IMG/VR virus record: IMGVR_UViG_3300032046_000003 | Location: 64,001 to 128,000 of that record | Source: a virus | Lineage: Duplodnaviria; Heunggongvirae; Uroviricota; Caudoviricetes | DNA: 64,000 nucleotides | Reading direction: 5' to 3' (one strand) | In this document: piece by piece, positions 2,188-58,139 of the stretch | How positions within the stretch are numbered: position 1 is the first letter of the stretch | Layout of the letters: every line of letters starts with the position of its first letter | The notes under the pieces: model-generated | Told to the model about the DNA's origin: nothing | Databases searched by the model: none | Seen by the model: the letters and a program-made list of their open reading frames with translations, nothing else | Translations under genes and position numbers: made by a program

Positions 2188-2319
2188 TCTCGACTCAAAC
2201 AAAAAAACAAGTGAGACAAATCTCACGAAATTAATAATGCTGCGGTCAACTGGGAGAAGACTACCGCGAAATAAAAAACTTCCTCCAAAAAATCATAAAC
2301 AAAAGGGGGGAAAAATAAA

Positions 2320-2387
2320 ATGGCTAGTTTAGAAAAAGCTCTGTCGTCAATAAGCGGACAGGGCGGAGATGTAATTATACCTCAGCT
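2320..2387 (+). CDS. Major capsid protein, exon 1 (MASLEKALSSISGQGGDVIIPQL)
   Basis: RBS GGGGGG at 2305-2310, ATG at 2320; GG..IP motif typical of the HK97-fold N-arm; frame closes at TAA 2392 unless spliced; exon ends in U as required for a group I 5' splice site. Confidence 0.85.
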
Positions 2388-2466
2388 TAATTAAGCAGGC
2401 TGACTTGCAGGTGACTGCAATGAAAAAAGATTGCTATATCGGAAAAAGTCGAATGGACTATTAAGT

Positions 2467-2519
2467 GGGTCTAAGATTAAATTGATCATTTAATCGACGG
2501 AGCTCCAACTCCTAGACCC
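2467..2519 (+). ncRNA. 53-nt three-way-junction element, copy 1 (upstream of intron-1 endonuclease RBS)
   Basis: GGGTCT-AAG-ATTAAAT/ATTTAAT-CGAC-GGAG/CTCC-T-AGACCC; covaries with the copies at 3642 and 14694. Confidence 0.75.
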
Positions 2520-2542
2520 TTTTAATACTTGGAGGTATTATA

Positions 2543-3205
2543 ATGGAATTATTAGAATGTAAAATTTGTGGACATAAAACTAAACAATTACATAATCATA
2601 TAAAATTTACTCATAAAATGAGTAGTAAAGAATATAAAGAAAAGTTTAATGTTAAGACATTATGTATTATTTGGAATAAAGGTCAAACTAGAAAAACAAA
2701 TTCAATTGTTGCTAAATATGGTGATTCTGCTACAAAAAGTGGTAAACATAGAAAACCACAACCATTATATTTCAAATGTTGGAATAAAGGATTAACAGTA
2801 GATACAGATGAAAGAATGGCTAGACTAAATGTAAAAGCTCAAAAAGCAGTTGCACAAACATTTAAAAGAAAGAATTATATATCTAGTTTAGATGAGAAAC
2901 TATATGTGTTATTAAATAAAAATAACATAAAATATGATCCACAAAAAAGTGTTACTATTGATAATAAATATGTTACGATTTTAGATGCATTTGTAGAACC
3001 TAACATTTGTATTTATGTTGATGGTAATTACTGGCATTCAATTCCAAGAGTAAAAAATAGAGATTCATTTTTTACAGATAAGTTAATAAAAATTGGATTT
3101 AAAGTAATAAGAATATGGGAAAATGAATTCGATAATTCCGAGGAAAGACTCTTAAATTTTATAAGAGAATCCGTAGAGACTATACGCAATCCTCTCAATA
3201 TTTGA
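2543..3205 (+). CDS. Intron-encoded homing endonuclease-like protein (C2H2-type Zn finger + WNKG repeats + Vsr/DUF559-like nuclease domain)
   Basis: CKICG...LHNHIKFTH Zn finger; WNKG repeats; LDAFV..NICIYVDGNYWH...GFKVIRIWE Vsr-like signature; RBS GGAGG at 2531; lies within intron 1. Confidence 0.8.
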   Translation: MELLECKICGHKTKQLHNHIKFTHKMSSKEYKEKFNVKTLCIIWNKGQTRKTNSIVAKYGDSATKSGKHRKPQPLYFKCWNKGLTVDTDERMARLNVKAQKAVAQTFKRKNYISSLDEKLYVLLNKNNIKYDPQKSVTIDNKYVTILDAFVEPNICIYVDGNYWHSIPRVKNRDSFFTDKLIKIGFKVIRIWENEFDNSEERLLNFIRESVETIRNPLNI

Positions 3206-3304
3206 GATGAAGATATAGTCCGAACTGAAAATATAAACCAATAAATTTCAGAGTTAATTAGAAATAATTAACCATCTAAAGACGGTAGATGTAACAACTG
3301 GTTG

Positions 3305-3562
3305 TGCTGACCAGATAATTCCGGTTATCCGTCAGAAATCTTACATGAGGCAATTCTTACAAAGTTTCAATATGCCGACAGAAACGTACAGGTTTCCTAA
3401 GTTAACAACTGGGAATACCGTGTATTATGTTGGAGAAACTGCCTCTGCTCCTGAAAGTTTAATGGCTACGGGGACTGTAGAACTCAACGCGAAAAAGCTC
3501 ATGGTGGCATTAGCGGTCAGTGCTGAATTAGAAGAAGATGCGGTTCTGCCAATCGTTCCCGT
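3305..3562 (+). CDS. Major capsid protein, exon 2
   Basis: ADQIIPVIRQKSYMRQFLQ...YYVGE...VELNAKKLMVALAVSAELEEDA: HK97-fold E-loop/P-domain motifs; in frame with exons 1 and 3 after splicing. Confidence 0.9.
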
Positions 3563-3641
3563 AAATAATATTGCGGCTTTCTCAATAAATTGAGATCGAA
3601 AATTTGACTATATCGGTGAAGGTCTTATGGAAAAAAGTTAT

Positions 3642-3694
3642 GGGGCTAAGATTGAATTAGCTATTTAATCGACGGTGCCTAATCACCAAGCCCC
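3642..3694 (+). ncRNA. 53-nt three-way-junction element, copy 2 (upstream of intron-2 endonuclease RBS)
   Basis: GGGGCT-AAG-ATTGAAT/ATTTAAT-CGAC-GGTG/CACC-A-AGCCCC. Confidence 0.75.
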
Positions 3695-3715
3695 TTATAT
3701 CTATTAGGAGATTAT

Positions 3716-4354
3716 ATGAATAAAGGACAATTTAAAAAAGGGCATAAAGGATATTGGTTCGGAAAGCGTAGAAGCAAAGAAACTATCAGTAAAATAAAAT
3801 TAACTGAGAAAGAACAGTTTAGAAATGGTATACGAAAACCTTGGAATAAGGGATTAAAAGGCGATAAAAGATGCGTTTGGAATGAGGGACTAACAAAAGA
3901 CACAAACGCAGGCATTAAAAAAATAAGTGATTCTAAGAAGGGTAAAACTTTCAAAGAAATCGCAAAGAATGTTAATCCCGAAGAATGGAAAAAGAAAGTA
4001 GCAAGGCATGGTGAAAACAATGGAAGTTGGCGCGGTGGCATAAGTTGGTATCATGGAAAAGATTGGAAAGCAATAAGTAAAAGTTATCGTAAGAAAAACC
4101 CAATTTGTAAAAAATGCAATAAGAAAGTTAAAATTGTTCACCATATATTACCGTATATTGTATTTAAGAGTGATAAAGAATTGATGTCTTTATGCAGAGG
4201 TTGTCATAGAAGTATAGAGAATTTACTAGATAAGTTTTTTAAGATAACACCGAGGAAAGACTGGAGTAATCCAGAATCCGTAGAGACTATACGTCAAATA
4301 ACTAAAGATTGGTTAGTTAATGATATAGTCCGAACTGCAAATATAATCCAATAA
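3716..4354 (+). CDS. Intron-encoded HNH homing endonuclease with NUMOD3-like repeats
   Basis: PWNKGL/WNEGLTK repeats, GENNGSWRGG linker, CKKC...VHHILP...LCRGCH HNH/Zn signature; RBS GGAG at 3707; lies within intron 2. Confidence 0.82.
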   Translation: MNKGQFKKGHKGYWFGKRRSKETISKIKLTEKEQFRNGIRKPWNKGLKGDKRCVWNEGLTKDTNAGIKKISDSKKGKTFKEIAKNVNPEEWKKKVARHGENNGSWRGGISWYHGKDWKAISKSYRKKNPICKKCNKKVKIVHHILPYIVFKSDKELMSLCRGCHRSIENLLDKFFKITPRKDWSNPESVETIRQITKDWLVNDIVRTANIIQ

Positions 4355-4414
4355 ATTGCAGAAGTAATTAGAAATAATTACTCATTTATAGAAATATAAA
4401 TTGTAACATAATTG

Positions 4415-5036
4415 AATAAGGGATGATATGGCAAAAGCATTTGCTCTTGCTGAGGAAAATGTTTTCATCAATGGAGACACAACTCACACTGCAACTGCAA
4501 CGGATCCTTCATCTGGAACTGATGCAAACTGGTATGTTAATGACCAAAGATTGGCTTTTAACGGATTAAGAAAGGTAGCATGTGGCACTTCAGTTGATGC
4601 TGGAAGTGGTGCTCTTACTTTAGCTGATATTTCGGCAGGTATTCAAAACTTAGACGTCTTCGGACGCGATAAGTCAGAGTTACTGTTGATTGTTTCACTT
4701 AGAGAAGAAAACACTCTTCGTCAATTGTTAGGTATCAACCTTGCTGTTAACCAGCTTGGTTTAACCGGCACAGCGCTTCCTGGAGAAATAGGTAAGGTAT
4801 GGGGCGTTCCAGTAGTTGCAACGAATTTACTCGCAATAGATTCTGACAATGAATCGGAAGCTTTAATTCTTAACAGAAATGCAGCGATTATCGGCGATCG
4901 TAGGATATTTACTATCAAGTCTTCGGACGAGGTATTAATACGTACTGATCAATTGTTAATTGTGGCTTCTGAAAGGTTAGCTTTCAATGCTCAATACTGT
5001 CAAGCGGTTGTTAAAATAGTTAACATCGCGGCCTAA
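4415..5036 (+). CDS. Major capsid protein, exon 3 (spliced product 315 aa)
   Basis: IRDDMAKAFALAEENVFINGD...FNGLRK...GEIGKVWGVPVVATN...ASERLAFNAQYCQAVVKI: HK97-fold spine helix and C-terminal motifs; 68+258+622 = 948 nt in one frame. Confidence 0.92.
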
Positions 5037-13166: not shown

Positions 13167-13203
13167 TTAAAAAGGAGGGAAAATAACTGCTGGAGATTAT
13201 TAT

Positions 13204-14076
13204 ATGAAAGAATCTAATGTAATTGAAGGAATTGATTATATAATTTGTCCAATATGTAAAAATAAAATAAAAAAACTTACAACTTCTCATTTAAAAAGAC
13301 ATTCAATCGCTTTTAGTATTTTTAAGAAACAATTTCCAAATCAACAGTTAGTATGCAAAAATACAAGCAAATTAATTGGAGATTTACAATTGGGCAAAAA
13401 TAATCATCAATATGGCAAACCTTCTTGGAATAAAGGCCTAACTAAAGCAATAGATCGTAGAGTCGCTAAATATTCCGAATCTATTAGTAAAACGCAAAAT
13501 GGTAAAACTTATGAAGAAAGATTTGGTATAGAAAATTCTAAAAAGCACAGGAATAACATAAGTAAAGCTATGATGAATCGTTATGTTTCTGGTGTAACTA
13601 GAGCCAAGATTGGTAAAGCAAATAGTGGAAAAATAAGAACAGAAGAACACAAATGTAACATGAGAATTGCCCAAAATAGATCAGAAATTAAATTAAAAAA
13701 AAGATTGGCCATTTGTAAAAATATTAAAAAGAATGGTGGACTTTTCGCAGGTTATAATTCAAATGCCTGTGAAATTTTCAAACAGTTTGATGAATTAAAT
13801 AATACTAATGGAATTTTTGCAACAAATCCTTATGAGTTCCAGATTTTAGGTTATTCTCTCGACTATATAAACTTCGATAAAAAGCTTATAATAGAAATAG
13901 ATGAAAAGCATCACTTTGACAAAAACGGACTATTAAAATCTAAAGATGTAATTCGTCAAAGAGAAATACAAGAACTATATTCAGGTTTTAAATTTTTAAG
14001 ATTTAGGGAGGAAAATATGAGTAAAATATTGGAAATGAAAGTAGAAAATTTTAAAGGAGGTGGTATTTGTGAGTAA
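13204..14076 (+). CDS. Free-standing homing endonuclease-like protein (C2H2 finger + NUMOD3-like repeats + Vsr/DUF559-like domain), paralog A
   Basis: CPIC...SHLKRH; PSWNKGLTK; C-terminal ACE.FK.FDE.NNT.G...LGYSLDYINFDKKLIIEIDEKHH. Confidence 0.78.
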   Translation: MKESNVIEGIDYIICPICKNKIKKLTTSHLKRHSIAFSIFKKQFPNQQLVCKNTSKLIGDLQLGKNNHQYGKPSWNKGLTKAIDRRVAKYSESISKTQNGKTYEERFGIENSKKHRNNISKAMMNRYVSGVTRAKIGKANSGKIRTEEHKCNMRIAQNRSEIKLKKRLAICKNIKKNGGLFAGYNSNACEIFKQFDELNNTNGIFATNPYEFQILGYSLDYINFDKKLIIEIDEKHHFDKNGLLKSKDVIRQREIQELYSGFKFLRFREENMSKILEMKVENFKGGGICE

Positions 14077-14668
14077 CTTAGTAGGTGCGCCGCTTACAGC
14101 AATTACAGCTAATCTATTGTTTTTCGGAAAGTCTATAGGCGAATTGCAGTCTTTGTCTTGGAATGAAAATAACAATTATCGTAGGTTAAGTGCGATAGGC
14201 AACGGGGTTGATGCTATACACGTTCCTGGAGTTGCTCAATATGATTTAACAGCCAGAAGAGCGTTGTTAGAGACGGATTTGGTTTTAGATTTATTGTATA
14301 CTCTTAAACAGGGAGACTTTGCCGGCAAAACGCCATTTGTTGGAGTTGCTCCAAATAATACTAATCAAACTTCTTTATTAGCAGCCTCAGTTACGCCACA
14401 AGATTTAGTCAATGCTATTATTGCAGGTGGAGGCGGTATAGATTTGGGAGACAAAATAGTCAACTTGTATTTTGATGTGCAAATTCAAAATTCACAAGGC
14501 GCTCCAATTATGACATTTGAAGACTGCTCTTTGAATACCAGAAGAGCAACATTGGACGTTGGTGGAGTTATAATCATGTCAGATGTAACTTTATTAGCCA
14601 GAAAGAGGAAAATAGCTACAGATTCTAATAGGGCTGCAGAGTTATTAAGAGCTTTGCCAGTCGTATAA
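14069..14668 (+). CDS. Tail tube protein (paralog 1)
   Basis: Follows the sheath; IGELQSLSWNENNN...IG...HVPG..YDLTARRA...FDVQI...F.DC pattern; start moved to GTG 14069 from RBS GGAGG 14056-14060. Confidence 0.75.
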   Translation: MSNLVGAPLTAITANLLFFGKSIGELQSLSWNENNNYRRLSAIGNGVDAIHVPGVAQYDLTARRALLETDLVLDLLYTLKQGDFAGKTPFVGVAPNNTNQTSLLAASVTPQDLVNAIIAGGGGIDLGDKIVNLYFDVQIQNSQGAPIMTFEDCSLNTRRATLDVGGVIIMSDVTLLARKRKIATDSNRAAELLRALPVV

Positions 14669-14693
14669 CAACATAAAGGAAAAATAAAATGCC

Positions 14694-14746
14694 GGGCCTA
14701 AGGTTGACCTCATGAATCAATCGACGGTGCTTGTACACCAAGGCCC
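14694..14746 (+). ncRNA. 53-nt three-way-junction element, copy 3 (free-standing, no intron)
   Basis: GGGCCT-AAG-GTTGA/TCAAT-CGAC-GGTG/CACC-A-AGGCCC; no group I R/S elements nearby. Confidence 0.75.
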
Positions 14747-14769
14747 TAAATCTTTACAAGGAGATTAAT

Positions 14770-14835
14770 ATGAGTTCATTTATAAAAGGGCATATTGCTT
14801 GGAACAAAGGATTAACCAAAGAGACAAATGAATAA
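14770..14835 (+). pseudogene. Stump of a homing endonuclease gene (MSSFIKGHIAWNKGLTKETNE*)
   Basis: RBS GGAG; F.KGH..WNKGLTKET matches the repeats of the 3716 and 13204 endonucleases; stops after 21 aa. Confidence 0.7.
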
Positions 14836-14868
14836 AATATTAGAAATTAAAATTAATAAAGGAAACTT

Positions 14869-15414
14869 ATGCCTGGAATTATAGGATCTCCATTAACCGC
14901 GTTAACCGCAAATATAACTTTTGACGGTCAAAAAATAGGACAACTGCAAGAGATAACTGTGGAGGAAAACTACAACTTAAAGCCTATTGAACAAATAGGT
15001 TCTAGCTACATCACTGAGTTCTTACCTGGTACGTATAGCGGAAGAATCGTTGCTGCTCGTGCTTTGATCGAAGGAGATTTATTTTTTGATAAACTTACTC
15101 CCGGCTTAACTTCTTCACAAGCACTTACAACAGTAGCAAACGATATGCTAGGTGATGGCTCAGTCAACATAAGTCCCGTAATAAAAGTGTTCGAAGGGAT
15201 AAACGACTTTTGGAATCAGATTTTTTTAGGAAAGGCAACAAAAGACAGAATAAACTTTGTTGTTTATTTTGATATAGAGTTGATAAATCCTAATAATGAA
15301 ATATTTGCAAAGTATTCTAAATGTGCAATATCCGCAAAAACGCTTTCAGTACAGTTAAATAATATAGTTATTATGCAGAATATTACATGTCTTTTCCAAA
15401 ATAGGTCAGTATAA
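14869..15414 (+). CDS. Tail tube-like protein (paralog 2)
   Basis: N-terminus GSPLTALTANI matches GAPLTAITANL of paralog 1; IGQLQEITVEENYN..PI..IG....EFLPG. Confidence 0.72.
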   Translation: MPGIIGSPLTALTANITFDGQKIGQLQEITVEENYNLKPIEQIGSSYITEFLPGTYSGRIVAARALIEGDLFFDKLTPGLTSSQALTTVANDMLGDGSVNISPVIKVFEGINDFWNQIFLGKATKDRINFVVYFDIELINPNNEIFAKYSKCAISAKTLSVQLNNIVIMQNITCLFQNRSV

Positions 15415-16046
15415 TGAAAAATAAAAGACATGGTAAAACAGGAAGACACTGGAAGTTATCTGGAGAAACTAAAAAACGCCAAAGTGAGGCCAAAATAGGA
15501 GATAAGAATCCATCATATGGTAAGCCTGCATATAATAGAGATGTTTCATCATCTGAACAATCTAAACTAAAAAATAGATTAGCTCATTTGGGTAAAAAAC
15601 AATCCAAAGAAATTATAGAAAAACGATTTGCCTGGTTAAAGGATAATAACAAAAGATTAGAAACTAATAAAAAAAGAAGTAAATCTTTGTCTGGAAGAAT
15701 TCAATCTGATGAACATAGACTTAATTCTAGAAAAGCTGCTATTAATAGAATTACGAGAAATAATGGAATTTGCAGACCTAATTTTAATCCAAAAGCATGT
15801 GAATTTTTTAAAAGCTATGATGAACATAATAATACAAACGGACAATATGCAACTAGTGGTGGAGAATATGAAATAAAAGATTTGGGTTATTTTCTTGACT
15901 ATATTAATTTTGATAAAAAACTTATAATGGAATTTGATGAGAAATATCATGATAAACGAAAAGATAAAGACGTAATTCGTCAAAAAGAGATTCAGCAATT
16001 ATATCCAGATTTTAAATTTATAAGAATAAAACAGGAGAGCATATAA
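15414..16046 (+). CDS. Free-standing homing endonuclease-like protein, paralog B
   Basis: NUMOD3-like N-terminus (IGDKNPSYGK); PNFNPKACEFFKSYDEHNNTNG...LGYFLDYINFDKKLIMEFDEKYH. Confidence 0.78.
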   Translation: MKNKRHGKTGRHWKLSGETKKRQSEAKIGDKNPSYGKPAYNRDVSSSEQSKLKNRLAHLGKKQSKEIIEKRFAWLKDNNKRLETNKKRSKSLSGRIQSDEHRLNSRKAAINRITRNNGICRPNFNPKACEFFKSYDEHNNTNGQYATSGGEYEIKDLGYFLDYINFDKKLIMEFDEKYHDKRKDKDVIRQKEIQQLYPDFKFIRIKQESI

Positions 16047-57916: not shown

Positions 57917-58139
57917 AAAAACACTAGATGAGCGTCCGGAAAAAATATACCCTTCGGTGGAAGAGACTAGGGATATACTCAAAAACAACCCCACGTTTAT
58001 ATCGACATTAATTGCGATAGCGCTAGTTAACGATATAAAATTAGAACCAGCAATAGCGCTCATTACATGCTTATTTCACAATGGGTTGGTTGACATGGGC
58101 GCGCTGTATCATTTTGTAAAAAGAATTAAGAACAAGTAA
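57906..58139 (+). CDS. Hypothetical protein
   Basis: ORF in a contiguous early operon. Confidence 0.45.
   Translation: MDIKKTLDERPEKIYPSVEETRDILKNNPTFISTLIAIALVNDIKLEPAIALITCLFHNGLVDMGALYHFVKRIKNK

What the first reader, a model, noticed from the sequence alone, without database searches (positions are those of the whole stretch)
2467..3694. Unassigned 53-nt covarying three-way-junction RNA element tied to homing endonuclease genes
Seen: three copies (2467-2519, 3642-3694, 14694-14746), each exactly 53 nt and each ending 21-23 nt before an endonuclease ATG, with the RBS in between. Shared layout: closing stem (GGGTCT/AGACCC, GGGGCT/AGCCCC, GGGCCT/AGGCCC), invariant AAG, second stem (ATTAAAT/ATTTAAT, ATTGAAT/ATTTAAT, GTTGA/TCAAT), invariant CGAC, third stem (GGAG/CTCC, GGTG/CACC twice). 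Stems change in compensating pairs while the junction bases stay fixed, which points to a functional RNA fold. Known: it lies between the P and Q elements and so is outside the catalytic core. It lacks the hammerhead, twister, pistol and HDV consensus nucleotides as I recall them. Inference: a cis-element of the endonuclease cassette rather than of the intron. It could be a translational control site (for example bound by the endonuclease), a processing or self-cleavage site releasing an endonuclease mRNA, or a splicing-helper domain.
Basis: partly seen in the sequence, partly recalled or inferred. Interest (0 to 1): 0.88.

Follow-up and report, generated by a model that had tools for sequence, protein, structure and literature searches.

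The report
Kissing-loop RNA lock on homing-endonuclease genes
The three 53-base repeats are real copies of a folded RNA leader that travels with selfish nuclease genes in one group of uncultured phages. One of its loops always pairs with the gene's ribosome-binding site, so it most likely keeps the nuclease barely translated; I found no published description of it.

Summary
Observation confirmed. The three 53-nt copies sit exactly where stated, 23, 21 and 23 nt before an endonuclease ATG.

I found 23 distinct copies in all: 6 in this 178-kb phage and 17 in related uncultured-phage contigs. The three-way junction is backed by covariation (99% of cells paired, 16 of 19 pairs with compensatory changes, 0 of 500 shuffles as good).

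- **RBS hairpin.** A short hairpin holding the Shine-Dalgarno sequence follows the junction. Its whole 6-7-nt loop is the exact reverse complement of the stem-3 loop in 23 of 23 copies. Of the 21 tabulated, 19 loop sequences are distinct.
- **Stem-2 apex.** It carries a self-complementary hexamer (U-N-N-N'-N'-A, 6 versions) in 23 of 23 copies. This is unexplained and may be an RNA dimerisation site.

Every copy precedes an HNH or Vsr/DUF559 endonuclease gene. Copies occur in different places within group I introns or stand free, so the leader belongs to the endonuclease cassette, not the intron.

Best reading: a portable translational lock. Self-cleavage and splicing-helper readings are not supported. 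There is no Rfam match and no paper was found.

The scan noted this leader before in this genome (e1-1829088), and similar leaders on other phage DNA.

The parts
2467..2519 (+). Leader copy 1, three-way junction. P1 2467-2472/2514-2519; P2 2475-2482/2488-2495 with apex hexamer TGATCA at 2483-2488; P3 2499-2502/2509-2512; loop L3 CTCCAA at 2503-2508.
   Evidence: Pattern match; covariance model hit of 73.6 bits; MFE fold gives the same junction, z -3.5; pair counts.
2523..2545 (+). RBS hairpin of copy 1. Stem 2523-2528/2535-2540; loop TTGGAG at 2529-2534 is the exact reverse complement of L3; SD GGAGG spans the loop and 3' stem; ATG at 2543.
3642..3694 (+). Leader copy 2, three-way junction. 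Apex hexamer TAGCTA at 3658-3663; L3 CCTAAT at 3678-3683.
3699..3718 (+). RBS hairpin of copy 2. Stem 3699-3702/3709-3712; loop ATTAGG at 3703-3708 is the reverse complement of L3; ATG at 3716.
14694..14746 (+). Leader copy 3, intergenic and free-standing. Apex hexamer TCATGA at 14710-14715; L3 CTTGTA at 14730-14735.
14749..14772 (+). RBS hairpin of copy 3. Stem 14749-14754/14761-14766; loop TACAAG at 14755-14760 is the reverse complement of L3; ATG at 14770.
14770..14835 (+). 21-codon stump of an endonuclease gene (NUMOD3-like WNKGLTKET) behind copy 3.
   Evidence: Translation.
2543..3205 (+). Intron-1 endonuclease gene, 220 aa (ROS/MucR-type zinc ribbon plus DUF559/Vsr-type nuclease). Its 3' end runs through P5', P4', P6, P7, P3' and into P8 of the intron core.
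   Evidence: ORF list; Pfam; core coordinates.
3716..4354 (+). Intron-2 endonuclease gene, 212 aa (weak, sub-threshold NUMOD3 hit; I read an HNH-like Cys/His motif by eye, with no Pfam HNH hit). Its 3' end runs through the core into the P9 loop.
2388..3304 (+). Group I intron 1 of the major capsid gene, 917 nt. It follows a U and ends in G. The leader and ORF sit in the P5 loop (P5 at 2448-2454/3127-3133).
   Evidence: An intron-less DNA allele in run X4 joins 2385 to 3306 with a synonymous TTA. Weak Intron_gpI hit at 3075-3227. Core elements located. The joined exons give an open 315-aa capsid protein.
3563..4414 (+). Group I intron 2 of the major capsid gene, 852 nt. It follows a U and ends in G. 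The leader and ORF sit in the P5 loop (P5 at 3622-3627/4240-4245).
   Evidence: An intron-less DNA allele in run X3 joins 3559 to 4416 with TGTT. Weak Intron_gpI hit at 4181-4340..

Best explanation
The 53-nt element is the 5' two thirds of a roughly 75-80-nt cis-acting leader RNA that belongs to a mobile homing-endonuclease cassette.

**Anatomy**
- A three-way junction: P1 closing stem, P2, P3.
- After 0-5 nt, a short hairpin (P4) that carries the Shine-Dalgarno sequence.
- The whole 6-7-nt loop of P3 pairs with the whole loop of P4 in a kissing complex. The rest of the SD lies in the 3' strand of P4, so every SD base is paired.

**Inferred effect**
The 30S subunit is largely shut out and the nuclease is made only at a low, leaky level, or only in a short window before the lock closes.

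**Inferred benefits**
- Ribosomes are kept out of the intron. Both intron ORFs here run through P5'/P4'/P6/P7, so translation would unfold the ribozyme and block splicing of the capsid mRNA.
- A DNA-cutting enzyme carried on highly expressed transcripts is kept scarce.

Because the lock is closed by its own P1 stem, it works wherever the cassette lands: the P5 loop, beyond P9, or between genes.

**Shown versus inferred**
- Shown: the fold, the kissing contact, its position relative to the SD and ATG, and its exclusive association with endonuclease genes.
- Inferred: that it represses translation, how the repression is relieved, and what the junction bases and the P2 apex do.
For: 1. **Junction.** On 21 copies, 99.2% of cells are paired, 16 of 19 pairs have changes on both sides, 0 of 500 shuffles reach this, and slid controls fall to 28-54% paired (13 copies).
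2. **Fold prediction.** All 13 copies folded give the same junction plus RBS hairpin as the minimum-energy structure, with z from -1.7 to -4.8.
3. **Kissing contact.** The exact reverse complement of the entire L3 loop lies 6-10 nt after the element in 21 of 21 copies, with 19 distinct loop sequences. Two further copies also obey. Among the first 13 copies, non-cognate pairs average a 3.8-nt run against 6.4 for cognate pairs. Ten of the 23 copies were found after the rule was stated and all fit.
4. **SD position.** The complementary loop ends in the first bases of the SD (AGG, GAG, GGG or AAG) and the next bases form the P4 3' strand. The kiss ends 7-11 nt before the ATG in 20 of the 21 tabulated copies; L093 reads 4 nt to its first ATG or 10 nt to the next in-frame one.
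5. **Gene association.** Every copy precedes an HNH or Vsr/DUF559 endonuclease ORF, one 21-codon stump or one internally deleted remnant. No hit anywhere else was found in about 0.6 Mb of related phage DNA, and scores are bimodal (57 bits or more, or 15 or less).
6. **Position.** P5 loop here and in L094, after P9 in G005, intergenic in others.
7. **Precedent.** RBS-sequestering structures control T-even endonuclease genes, and loss of the I-TevI hairpin impairs td splicing (PMC2988022, sections 12 and 14, read).
8. **Contrast within the genome.** The roughly 16 endonuclease-like ORFs without the leader mostly abut the upstream stop codon and lack a strong SD, whereas leader-bearing ones all have GGAG-type SDs.
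Against: - No expression, probing or reporter data exist; no RNA run holds this phage.
- The lock is present on every conceivable transcript. Where a cassette promoter exists (a perfect TATAAT 5-8 nt before P1 in 8 relatives), it lies upstream of the whole structure. The T4 way of relieving repression is therefore absent and no release mechanism is known.
- A strong promoter plus a strong SD plus a permanent lock is an odd design unless something opens it.
- Kissing duplex energies are modest, -3.9 to -7.9 kcal/mol by nearest-neighbour rules.
- The model does not explain why the junction bases and the palindromic P2 apex are conserved.
- The family is narrow. It was found only in one clade of sediment-metagenome phages.
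Confidence: 0.7

Rival explanations
1. The leader is a regulated switch, not only a brake. The self-complementary hexamer at the P2 apex lets two leaders pair, first as a kissing dimer and then perhaps as an extended duplex like the HIV-1 dimerisation site. Alternatively the junction binds a phage or host factor. Either event would remodel the junction and free the SD when transcripts are abundant or a signal is present.
For: - A U-N-N-N'-N'-A hexamer sits at the same register in 23 of 23 copies, in 6 versions. The inner pair shows 5 pair types (AU 11, CG 5, UA 3, GC 1, GU 1). Shuffled loops give a mean of 0.85 and a maximum of 5 of 13.
- The register is offset by half a base from the P2 hairpin axis, so it is not a stem extension.
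- In the copies with a 5-bp P2, the loop layout (2 nt, hexamer, 1 nt) is that of the HIV-1 DIS loop (my recollection).
- Predicted P2 extended dimers are 6-12 kcal/mol more stable than two hairpins. In 8 of the 9 copies tested, mutating the hexamer cuts the gain, to about 3 kcal/mol in seven of them; in G7 the mutant's gain is larger.
- A permanent lock behind a strong promoter and a strong SD calls for a release mechanism.
Against: - More than half of the copies have AU-only hexamers (UAAUUA, UUAUAA) whose isolated duplex energy is near zero.
- No ligand or protein candidate is known and no riboswitch model matches.
- Dimerisation has no evident benefit for an endonuclease mRNA.
- This is compatible with the best explanation rather than opposed to it.
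Confidence: 0.2
2. The junction mainly protects the endonuclease mRNA. P1 begins at the transcription start, and a 5'-terminal helix blocks 5'-end-dependent decay (RNase E, RNase J or RppH pathways). The kissing contact would be secondary.
For: - In 8 of 21 copies a perfect TATAAT, 5 of them with an upstream TG, ends 5-8 nt before the first G of P1. One copy in this phage has TG-n-AATAAT at 7 nt.
- TGnTATAAT-type words are the enriched intergenic motif of this genome.
- That 5'-terminal stem-loops stabilise bacterial mRNAs is established knowledge (recalled, not checked here).
Against: - Most copies, including all three in the window, have no such promoter and lie inside longer transcripts (intron loops, or 0-25 nt after an upstream stop codon).
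- A simple hairpin would suffice for this role.
- It does not explain the perfectly covarying contact with the SD.
Confidence: 0.15
3. It is a small self-cleaving or processing RNA that releases an endonuclease mRNA from the intron or polycistron, in the manner of the GIR1 lariat-capping ribozyme in twin-ribozyme introns.
For: - It is a compact junction with a tertiary contact, placed directly upstream of an intron-borne endonuclease ORF.
- GIR1 shows that such an arrangement exists (PMC2219692, abstract seen).
Against: - No hammerhead, twister, twister-sister, pistol, hatchet, HDV or GIR1 model matches, even at E<=10 in short windows.
- Only about five unpaired junction bases are conserved, and even these vary in relatives.
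- The covarying tertiary contact targets the SD, which points to translation.
- Cleavage 5' of P1 would gain nothing where a promoter already starts the transcript there.
Confidence: 0.04
4. It is a peripheral domain of the group I intron (P5abc-like) that helps folding or splicing.
For: In this window two copies lie in the P5 loop, between P4 and P4'. P5abc of Tetrahymena is also a three-way junction (recalled).
Against: - At least five copies are intergenic with no intron core nearby.
- In G005 the element lies after P9.
- Its distance to the ATG is fixed while its place in the intron is not.
- Its loop pairs with the SD, not with the core.
Confidence: 0.02
5. It is a DNA-level signal, such as an operator, a promoter or a recombination or homing site of the cassette.
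For: Inverted repeats and a palindromic hexamer could bind a dimeric protein on DNA. I-TevI represses its own promoter through an operator (PMC2988022; this point recalled, not among the passages read).
Against: - Stems and the hexamer change sequence while keeping complementarity. G-U pairs occur on the + strand only, which is the signature of RNA pairing rather than protein-DNA recognition.
- All copies are on the coding strand.
- No consistent sigma-70 site lies inside the element.
Confidence: 0.04

Closest known systems
RBS-sequestering regulatory hairpins of T-even phage homing-endonuclease genes (I-TevI, I-TevII, I-TevIII, segB, Aeh1 mobE); Edgell, Gibb and Belfort 2010, PMC2988022
   Same: An RNA structure immediately upstream of intron-borne and free-standing endonuclease genes that base-pairs the SD. 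The biological rationale is the same: limit the nuclease and keep ribosomes out of the intron core.
   Different: - Those are simple hairpins in which an upstream strand pairs with the SD. Here a three-way junction presents a loop that kisses the loop of a separate SD hairpin.
- In T4 a late promoter inside or after the 5' arm makes an unlocked short transcript. Here the promoter, where present, lies upstream of the entire lock.
- There is no sequence homology.
- Here the leader is a conserved portable module shared by HNH and Vsr-type genes.
5' leader of the levivirus (MS2) maturation gene: a cloverleaf with a long-distance pairing of an upstream sequence to the SD, read in PMC4615214
   Same: A multi-branched leader at the 5' end of the RNA whose upstream segment pairs with the SD of a protein needed in very few copies. 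Covariation is seen in the arms and in the SD contact.
   Different: - MS2 uses a linear strand-strand helix and a proven metastable hairpin that opens a kinetic window. No such metastable alternative was found here.
- The contact here is loop-loop.
- MS2 is an RNA phage and the two are unrelated in sequence.
GIR1 lariat-capping ribozyme of twin-ribozyme group I introns (PMC2219692)
   Same: A structured RNA placed inside a group I intron directly upstream of the homing-endonuclease ORF, serving expression of that ORF.
   Different: GIR1 is a roughly 190-nt group-I-derived ribozyme that caps the mRNA by branching. Here there is no Rfam match, the unit is 75-80 nt, copies also stand free, and there is no sign of catalysis.
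HIV-1 dimerisation initiation site and other palindromic kissing loops (recalled knowledge)
   Same: A hairpin loop with a central 6-nt self-complementary sequence whose letters vary but stay palindromic. In the copies with a 5-bp P2 it is flanked by 2 and 1 unpaired bases.
   Different: The hexamers here are AU-rich, dimerisation is untested, and the context is a bacterial-type mRNA leader rather than a packaged genome.
Purine-riboswitch-type three-way junctions with a loop-loop tertiary contact (recalled knowledge)
   Same: A three-helix junction with conserved junction bases and a loop-loop contact, controlling SD access.
   Different: In purine riboswitches L2 kisses L3 within the aptamer. 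Here L3 kisses an external SD hairpin. No Rfam riboswitch model matches and no ligand is indicated.

Membership tests
T-even type RBS-sequestering endonuclease hairpins | A structure directly upstream of a homing-endonuclease start codon that base-pairs the SD | tested here: met
   In 23 of 23 copies the SD is split between a covarying kissing helix and the P4 3' strand. The kiss ends 7-11 nt before the ATG in 20 of the 21 tabulated copies.
T-even type RBS-sequestering endonuclease hairpins | A single hairpin whose 5' arm is the anti-SD strand | tested here: not met
   The anti-SD is the loop of P3 in a three-way junction, and the SD sits in its own hairpin.
T-even type RBS-sequestering endonuclease hairpins | A promoter nested so that the late transcript lacks the inhibitory strand | tested here: not met
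   TATAAT boxes, where present, end 5-8 nt before the first base of P1, so transcripts carry the whole lock. No consistent sigma-70 site lies inside the window's copies. Phage-specific promoters could not be tested.
Group I intron peripheral domain (P5abc-like) | A fixed position relative to the intron core, and occurrence only in introns | tested here: not met
   P5 loop in this window and L094, after P9 in G005, intergenic in at least 5 copies.
Small self-cleaving ribozymes (hammerhead, twister, twister-sister, pistol, hatchet, HDV-like) and GIR1 | A match to the family covariance model or conserved catalytic core | tested here: not met
   No such family among cmscan hits at E<=10 in 2300-4500 and 14640-14880, and none at gathering score in the whole window.
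Small self-cleaving ribozymes | Site-specific self-cleavage | not testable with these tools
   Needs an in vitro transcription and cleavage assay.
Riboswitches | A match to a known aptamer model, and a conserved ligand pocket | tested here: not met
   No riboswitch family. The only conserved unpaired bases are AA and GA(Y), and they vary in relatives.
DIS-like kissing-dimer loops | A self-complementary hexamer in a hairpin loop that is maintained by covariation | tested here: met
   23 of 23 copies and 6 hexamers; the inner pair has 5 pair types.
DIS-like kissing-dimer loops | The RNA forms homodimers through that loop | not testable with these tools
   Only nearest-neighbour estimates are available. 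These favour extended P2 dimers but give almost no energy for AU-only hexamer duplexes.
Group I intron (the host elements in this window) | The intron follows a U and ends in G, has P3-P9 core pairings, and excision restores the reading frame | tested here: met
   Intron-less DNA alleles define 2388-3304 and 3563-4414. Core elements were located. The joined exons give an open 315-aa capsid protein. The Rfam Intron_gpI hits are only weak because the ORF splits the core.

The most novel reading that the evidence does not exclude
The leader is a self-recognising RNA. The palindromic P2 apex makes leaders of one kind pair with each other, possibly swapping the L3/SD-loop contact between molecules. 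Endonuclease translation, or the fate of the excised intron RNA, would then be coupled to the concentration of that transcript or to co-infection. That would be an RNA-dimer-gated expression switch carried by a mobile nuclease cassette.
Probability: 0.12. Interest if true: 0.85.

Novelty: new variant of a known kind. Interest (0 to 1): 0.62.

Why it matters
Homing endonucleases must be expressed enough to spread, yet they must not harm the host gene they interrupt or the phage that carries them. Until now the only described solution in phages was a simple SD hairpin combined with a nested late promoter.

Here the control device is itself a portable, conserved RNA module. It moves with unrelated nuclease genes (HNH and Vsr-type) and works in intron loops and between genes. 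Its key contact is rewritten in almost every copy while staying perfectly complementary.

- **For RNA biology:** it is a clean, small, strongly covarying motif with a junction, a kissing complex and an unexplained palindromic loop. It deserves a family entry and structural study.
- **For engineering:** the many orthogonal loop pairs form a natural library of insulated translational locks.
- **For annotation:** it flags endonuclease cassettes and their remnants. One copy here marks a 21-codon stump.

Tried and rejected
- **Rfam:** gathering search of the whole window and E<=10 searches of 2300-4500 and 14640-14880 gave nothing on the element, only chance-level hits to the SD region.
- **Mistyped pattern:** my first window pattern had one N too many and found nothing. 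It was corrected.
- **First viral-contig pattern scan**: 9 loci, all chance matches without a closing stem.
- **Megablast of 2200-4500 against GenBank phages:** no match.
- **The search for related loci with the intron-2 endonuclease:** no relatives. The alignment of seven endonucleases was too diverged to search with.
- **Metagenome pattern scan**: of 54 loci, 51 gave no model hit. Of the three that did, only L053 was a new copy; L044 and L058 repeated copies already held.
- **Unavailable searches:** 'relatives' cannot be drawn for a virus record. L044, L058 and L053 are not held as records.
- **Expression:** no RNA holder is listed for this stretch, so expression, transcript ends and splicing could not be examined.
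- **Sigma-70 scans** of the window's copies gave nothing consistent or above shuffles.
- **Widened model R2** found no diverged copies in the own genome or in 29 loci. The next best hits are 13-15 bits.
- **The search of earlier findings by sequence:** no look-alike.
- **Pairing partners for the P2 apex hexamer** in the P4 stem or flanks, checked by eye: none consistent.
- **Literature searches** for a junction or kissing-loop endonuclease leader: nothing found. The library is not exhaustive.
Full report
**1. Observation**

The window is bases 64001-128000 of a 178,280-bp uncultured phage genome with direct terminal repeats. None is expected in shuffled sequence.

Each copy is 53 nt and ends 23, 21 and 23 nt before an ATG. 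A covariance model made from the copies (R1) finds three more in the same genome, at 16439, 57012 and 58095.

**2. Relatives**

| Search | Result |
|---|---|
| Pattern scans of viral and metagenome contigs | copies in G005, G006, G007 and L053 |
| Tail sheath and capsid exon 3 searches, then model scans of the loci and whole records | further copies in related contigs |

These gave 17 more distinct copies in about nine contigs of one phage clade, so 23 in all. A first, stricter scan gave only chance hits. Model scores are bimodal: 57 bits or more for members, 15 or less for everything else, in the own genome and in 29 related loci.

**3. The fold**

- On 21 copies aligned to the model, 99.2% of pair cells are standard pairs. 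Sixteen of 19 pairs show changes on both sides, no shuffle of 500 reaches this, and sliding the partners drops pairing to 28-54% (13 copies).
This pair becomes A-U in L090 and G-U in L094:3577. The junction strands are therefore AA, GA(Y) and one variable base.
- ViennaRNA gives the same junction plus a downstream hairpin as the minimum-energy structure in all 13 copies folded, with z from -1.7 to -4.8.

**4.

*(a) The SD hairpin and kissing contact.* Zero to five bases after P1 comes a 3-7-bp hairpin (P4) whose loop and 3' strand contain the Shine-Dalgarno sequence.

- The entire 6-7-nt loop of P3 (L3) is the exact reverse complement of the P4 loop in 21 of 21 copies tabulated, with 19 distinct L3 sequences. 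The same holds in the two copies found last.
- Among the first 13 copies, non-cognate L3/P4 combinations share 3.8 complementary bases on average, against 6.4 for cognate ones.
- Ten copies were retrieved after I had stated the rule, and all obey it.
- In the window the pairs are CTCCAA/TTGGAG, CCTAAT/ATTAGG and CTTGTA/TACAAG.
The test here is my own.

*(b) The P2 apex.* It carries a self-complementary hexamer U-N-N-N'-N'-A at a fixed register in 23 of 23 copies.

- The six versions are TGATCA, TAGCTA, TCATGA, TAATTA, TGGCTA and TTATAA.
- Shuffled loops give a mean of 0.85 and a maximum of 5 of 13.
- The inner pair shows five pair types.
- The register is offset from the hairpin axis, so this is not a longer stem.

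**5. Context**

Every copy precedes an endonuclease gene. The genes are either Vsr/DUF559-type or HNH-type, with NUMOD3, ROS/MucR zinc-ribbon or C2H2 modules. The exceptions are remnants: a 21-codon stump at 14770-14835 and an internally deleted gene in L094.

The two capsid-gene copies lie in group I introns.

- Intron-less DNA alleles in two sediment metagenomes join 2385 to 3306 and 3559 to 4416 with synonymous codons. Each rests on a single low-depth contig.
- This fixes the introns at 2388-3304 and 3563-4414. Each follows a U and ends in G.
- The joined exons encode an open 315-aa capsid protein.
- Core elements P3-P9 can be read on both sides of the ORFs. P5 (GTCGAAT/ATTCGAT versus GTCTTA/TAAGAT) encloses the leader plus ORF. 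Rfam gives weak Intron_gpI hits on the 3' halves.
- In relative G005, two capsid introns at other sites carry the leader plus ORF after P9.
- At least five copies are intergenic.

The leader therefore keeps its place relative to the ATG, not relative to the intron. Both intron ORFs here run on through P5', P4', P6 and P7.

**6. Not all endonuclease genes have it**

An iterative search finds about 22 endonuclease-like ORFs in this genome. Only six carry the leader. The others mostly start right at the upstream stop codon without a strong SD.

**7. Promoters**

- In 8 of 21 copies (L033:2469, three in L101, three in L094, and L090) a perfect TATAAT, five of them with an upstream TG, ends 5-8 nt before the first G of P1. 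The copy at 58095 has TG-n-AATAAT at 7 nt.
- The same TGnTATAAT-type words are the enriched intergenic motif of this genome.
- The window's three copies lack it.
- Where the cassette has its own promoter, the transcript should therefore begin at P1 and carry the complete lock.

This differs from T4, where a late promoter inside the structure yields an unlocked transcript (PMC2988022, section 12).

**8. Mechanism**

*Shown:* a compact junction whose P3 loop pairs with the SD hairpin loop, so that all SD bases are paired, always in front of a homing-endonuclease gene.

*Inferred:* the structure blocks 30S binding and holds translation to a low level. This keeps ribosomes from unfolding the intron core, as shown for I-TevI in T4 (PMC2988022, section 14), and limits a nuclease carried on abundant late transcripts. 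The P1 stem insulates the module from its flanks, which would explain why it works in any insertion site.

*A functional analogue:* the 5' leader of the MS2 maturation gene is a cloverleaf that pairs an upstream strand with the SD and allows translation only in a kinetic window (PMC4615214). I found no metastable alternative here.

*Unexplained:* the release mechanism, if any, the conserved AA/GA(Y) junction, and the palindromic apex. Nearest-neighbour estimates favour P2 extended dimers by 6-12 kcal/mol, a gain that hexamer mutation reduced in 8 of the 9 copies tested. AU-only hexamer duplexes alone are worth almost nothing. Dimerisation is therefore a lead, not a finding.

**9. Rivals**

| Rival | Confidence | Main point |
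|---|---|---|
| Regulated or dimer-gated switch | 0.2 | compatible with the lock |
| 5'-terminal mRNA stabiliser | 0.15 | not exclusive of the lock; most copies are internal to transcripts |
| Self-cleaving ribozyme | 0.04 | no model match, few conserved unpaired bases |
| Intron peripheral domain | 0.02 | contradicted by free-standing copies |
| DNA-level site | 0.04 | covariation with G-U on one strand argues for RNA |

**10. Novelty**

There is no Rfam family, and four literature searches found no description.

The kind of device, SD masking upstream of phage endonuclease genes, is known. The architecture (junction, kissing complex, palindromic loop), its portability across nuclease families and the position of the promoter are new. 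I class it as a new variant of a known kind.

This scan has already reported the same leader from the neighbouring window of this genome (e1-1829088). It has also reported kissing-loop endonuclease leaders of 72-125 nt in other uncultured phages. Whether those are homologous is untested: a sequence look-up found no look-alike.

Noticed in passing
window 13187-14073 (ORF 13204-14076): A 290-aa endonuclease-like ORF (jackhmmer hit) is absent from a variant in DNA run X3, whose contig joins 13186 to 14074 with TGTC between. This looks like a presence/absence polymorphism of a free-standing homing-endonuclease gene that has no kissing-loop leader.
   Followed up: partly
window 14676-14699 and 14856-14880: The RBS and first codons of the tube gene (AAAGGAAA..ATGCC.GG) occur twice: once just before leader copy 3 and once at the real start at 14869. 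The cassette seems to have inserted after about codon 3 with a duplicated start (also noted in e1-5447156).
   Followed up: partly
window 2385/3306 and 3559/4416: Natural intron-less alleles of the capsid gene exist in other sediment metagenomes (runs X4 and X3), with synonymous codon differences at the junctions. This is consistent with ongoing intron homing and with exon co-conversion or target-site immunity.
   Followed up: partly
L094 3021-3262: A leader with an intact promoter and lock is followed by an internally deleted Vsr-type gene (start codons plus C-terminal tail only) inside a P5-loop intron. The leader therefore outlives its gene, as at window 14694.
   Followed up: no
window 15414-16046 and about 15 other ORFs of the genome: Most endonuclease-like genes of this phage have no leader. 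They start at or within a few bases of the upstream stop codon with weak or no SD, which suggests translational coupling as an alternative way to keep expression low.
   Followed up: partly
relatives L101, L094, L090, L033:2469; genome-wide intergenic regions: An extended -10 motif (TG-n-TATAAT-AT) is the main enriched intergenic word family of this phage. It sits 5-8 nt before the leader in relatives. The corresponding stretches before the window's intron copies look like decayed versions (ACTATTAAGT versus ACTATAATATATCT).
   Followed up: partly
L027 1150-3054 (relative G005): The capsid gene of the relative is interrupted at different sites from this phage (for example after GATTGGT, where this phage is continuous). 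Its introns carry the endonuclease after P9. Intron positions in this capsid gene are therefore highly variable within the clade.
   Followed up: partly
L030 1095-1832: An intron-borne NUMOD3/HNH gene in G007 runs through the intron's P7' (protein ends ...DIVRTSN...) but has no leader hit upstream. It may use another control.
   Followed up: no
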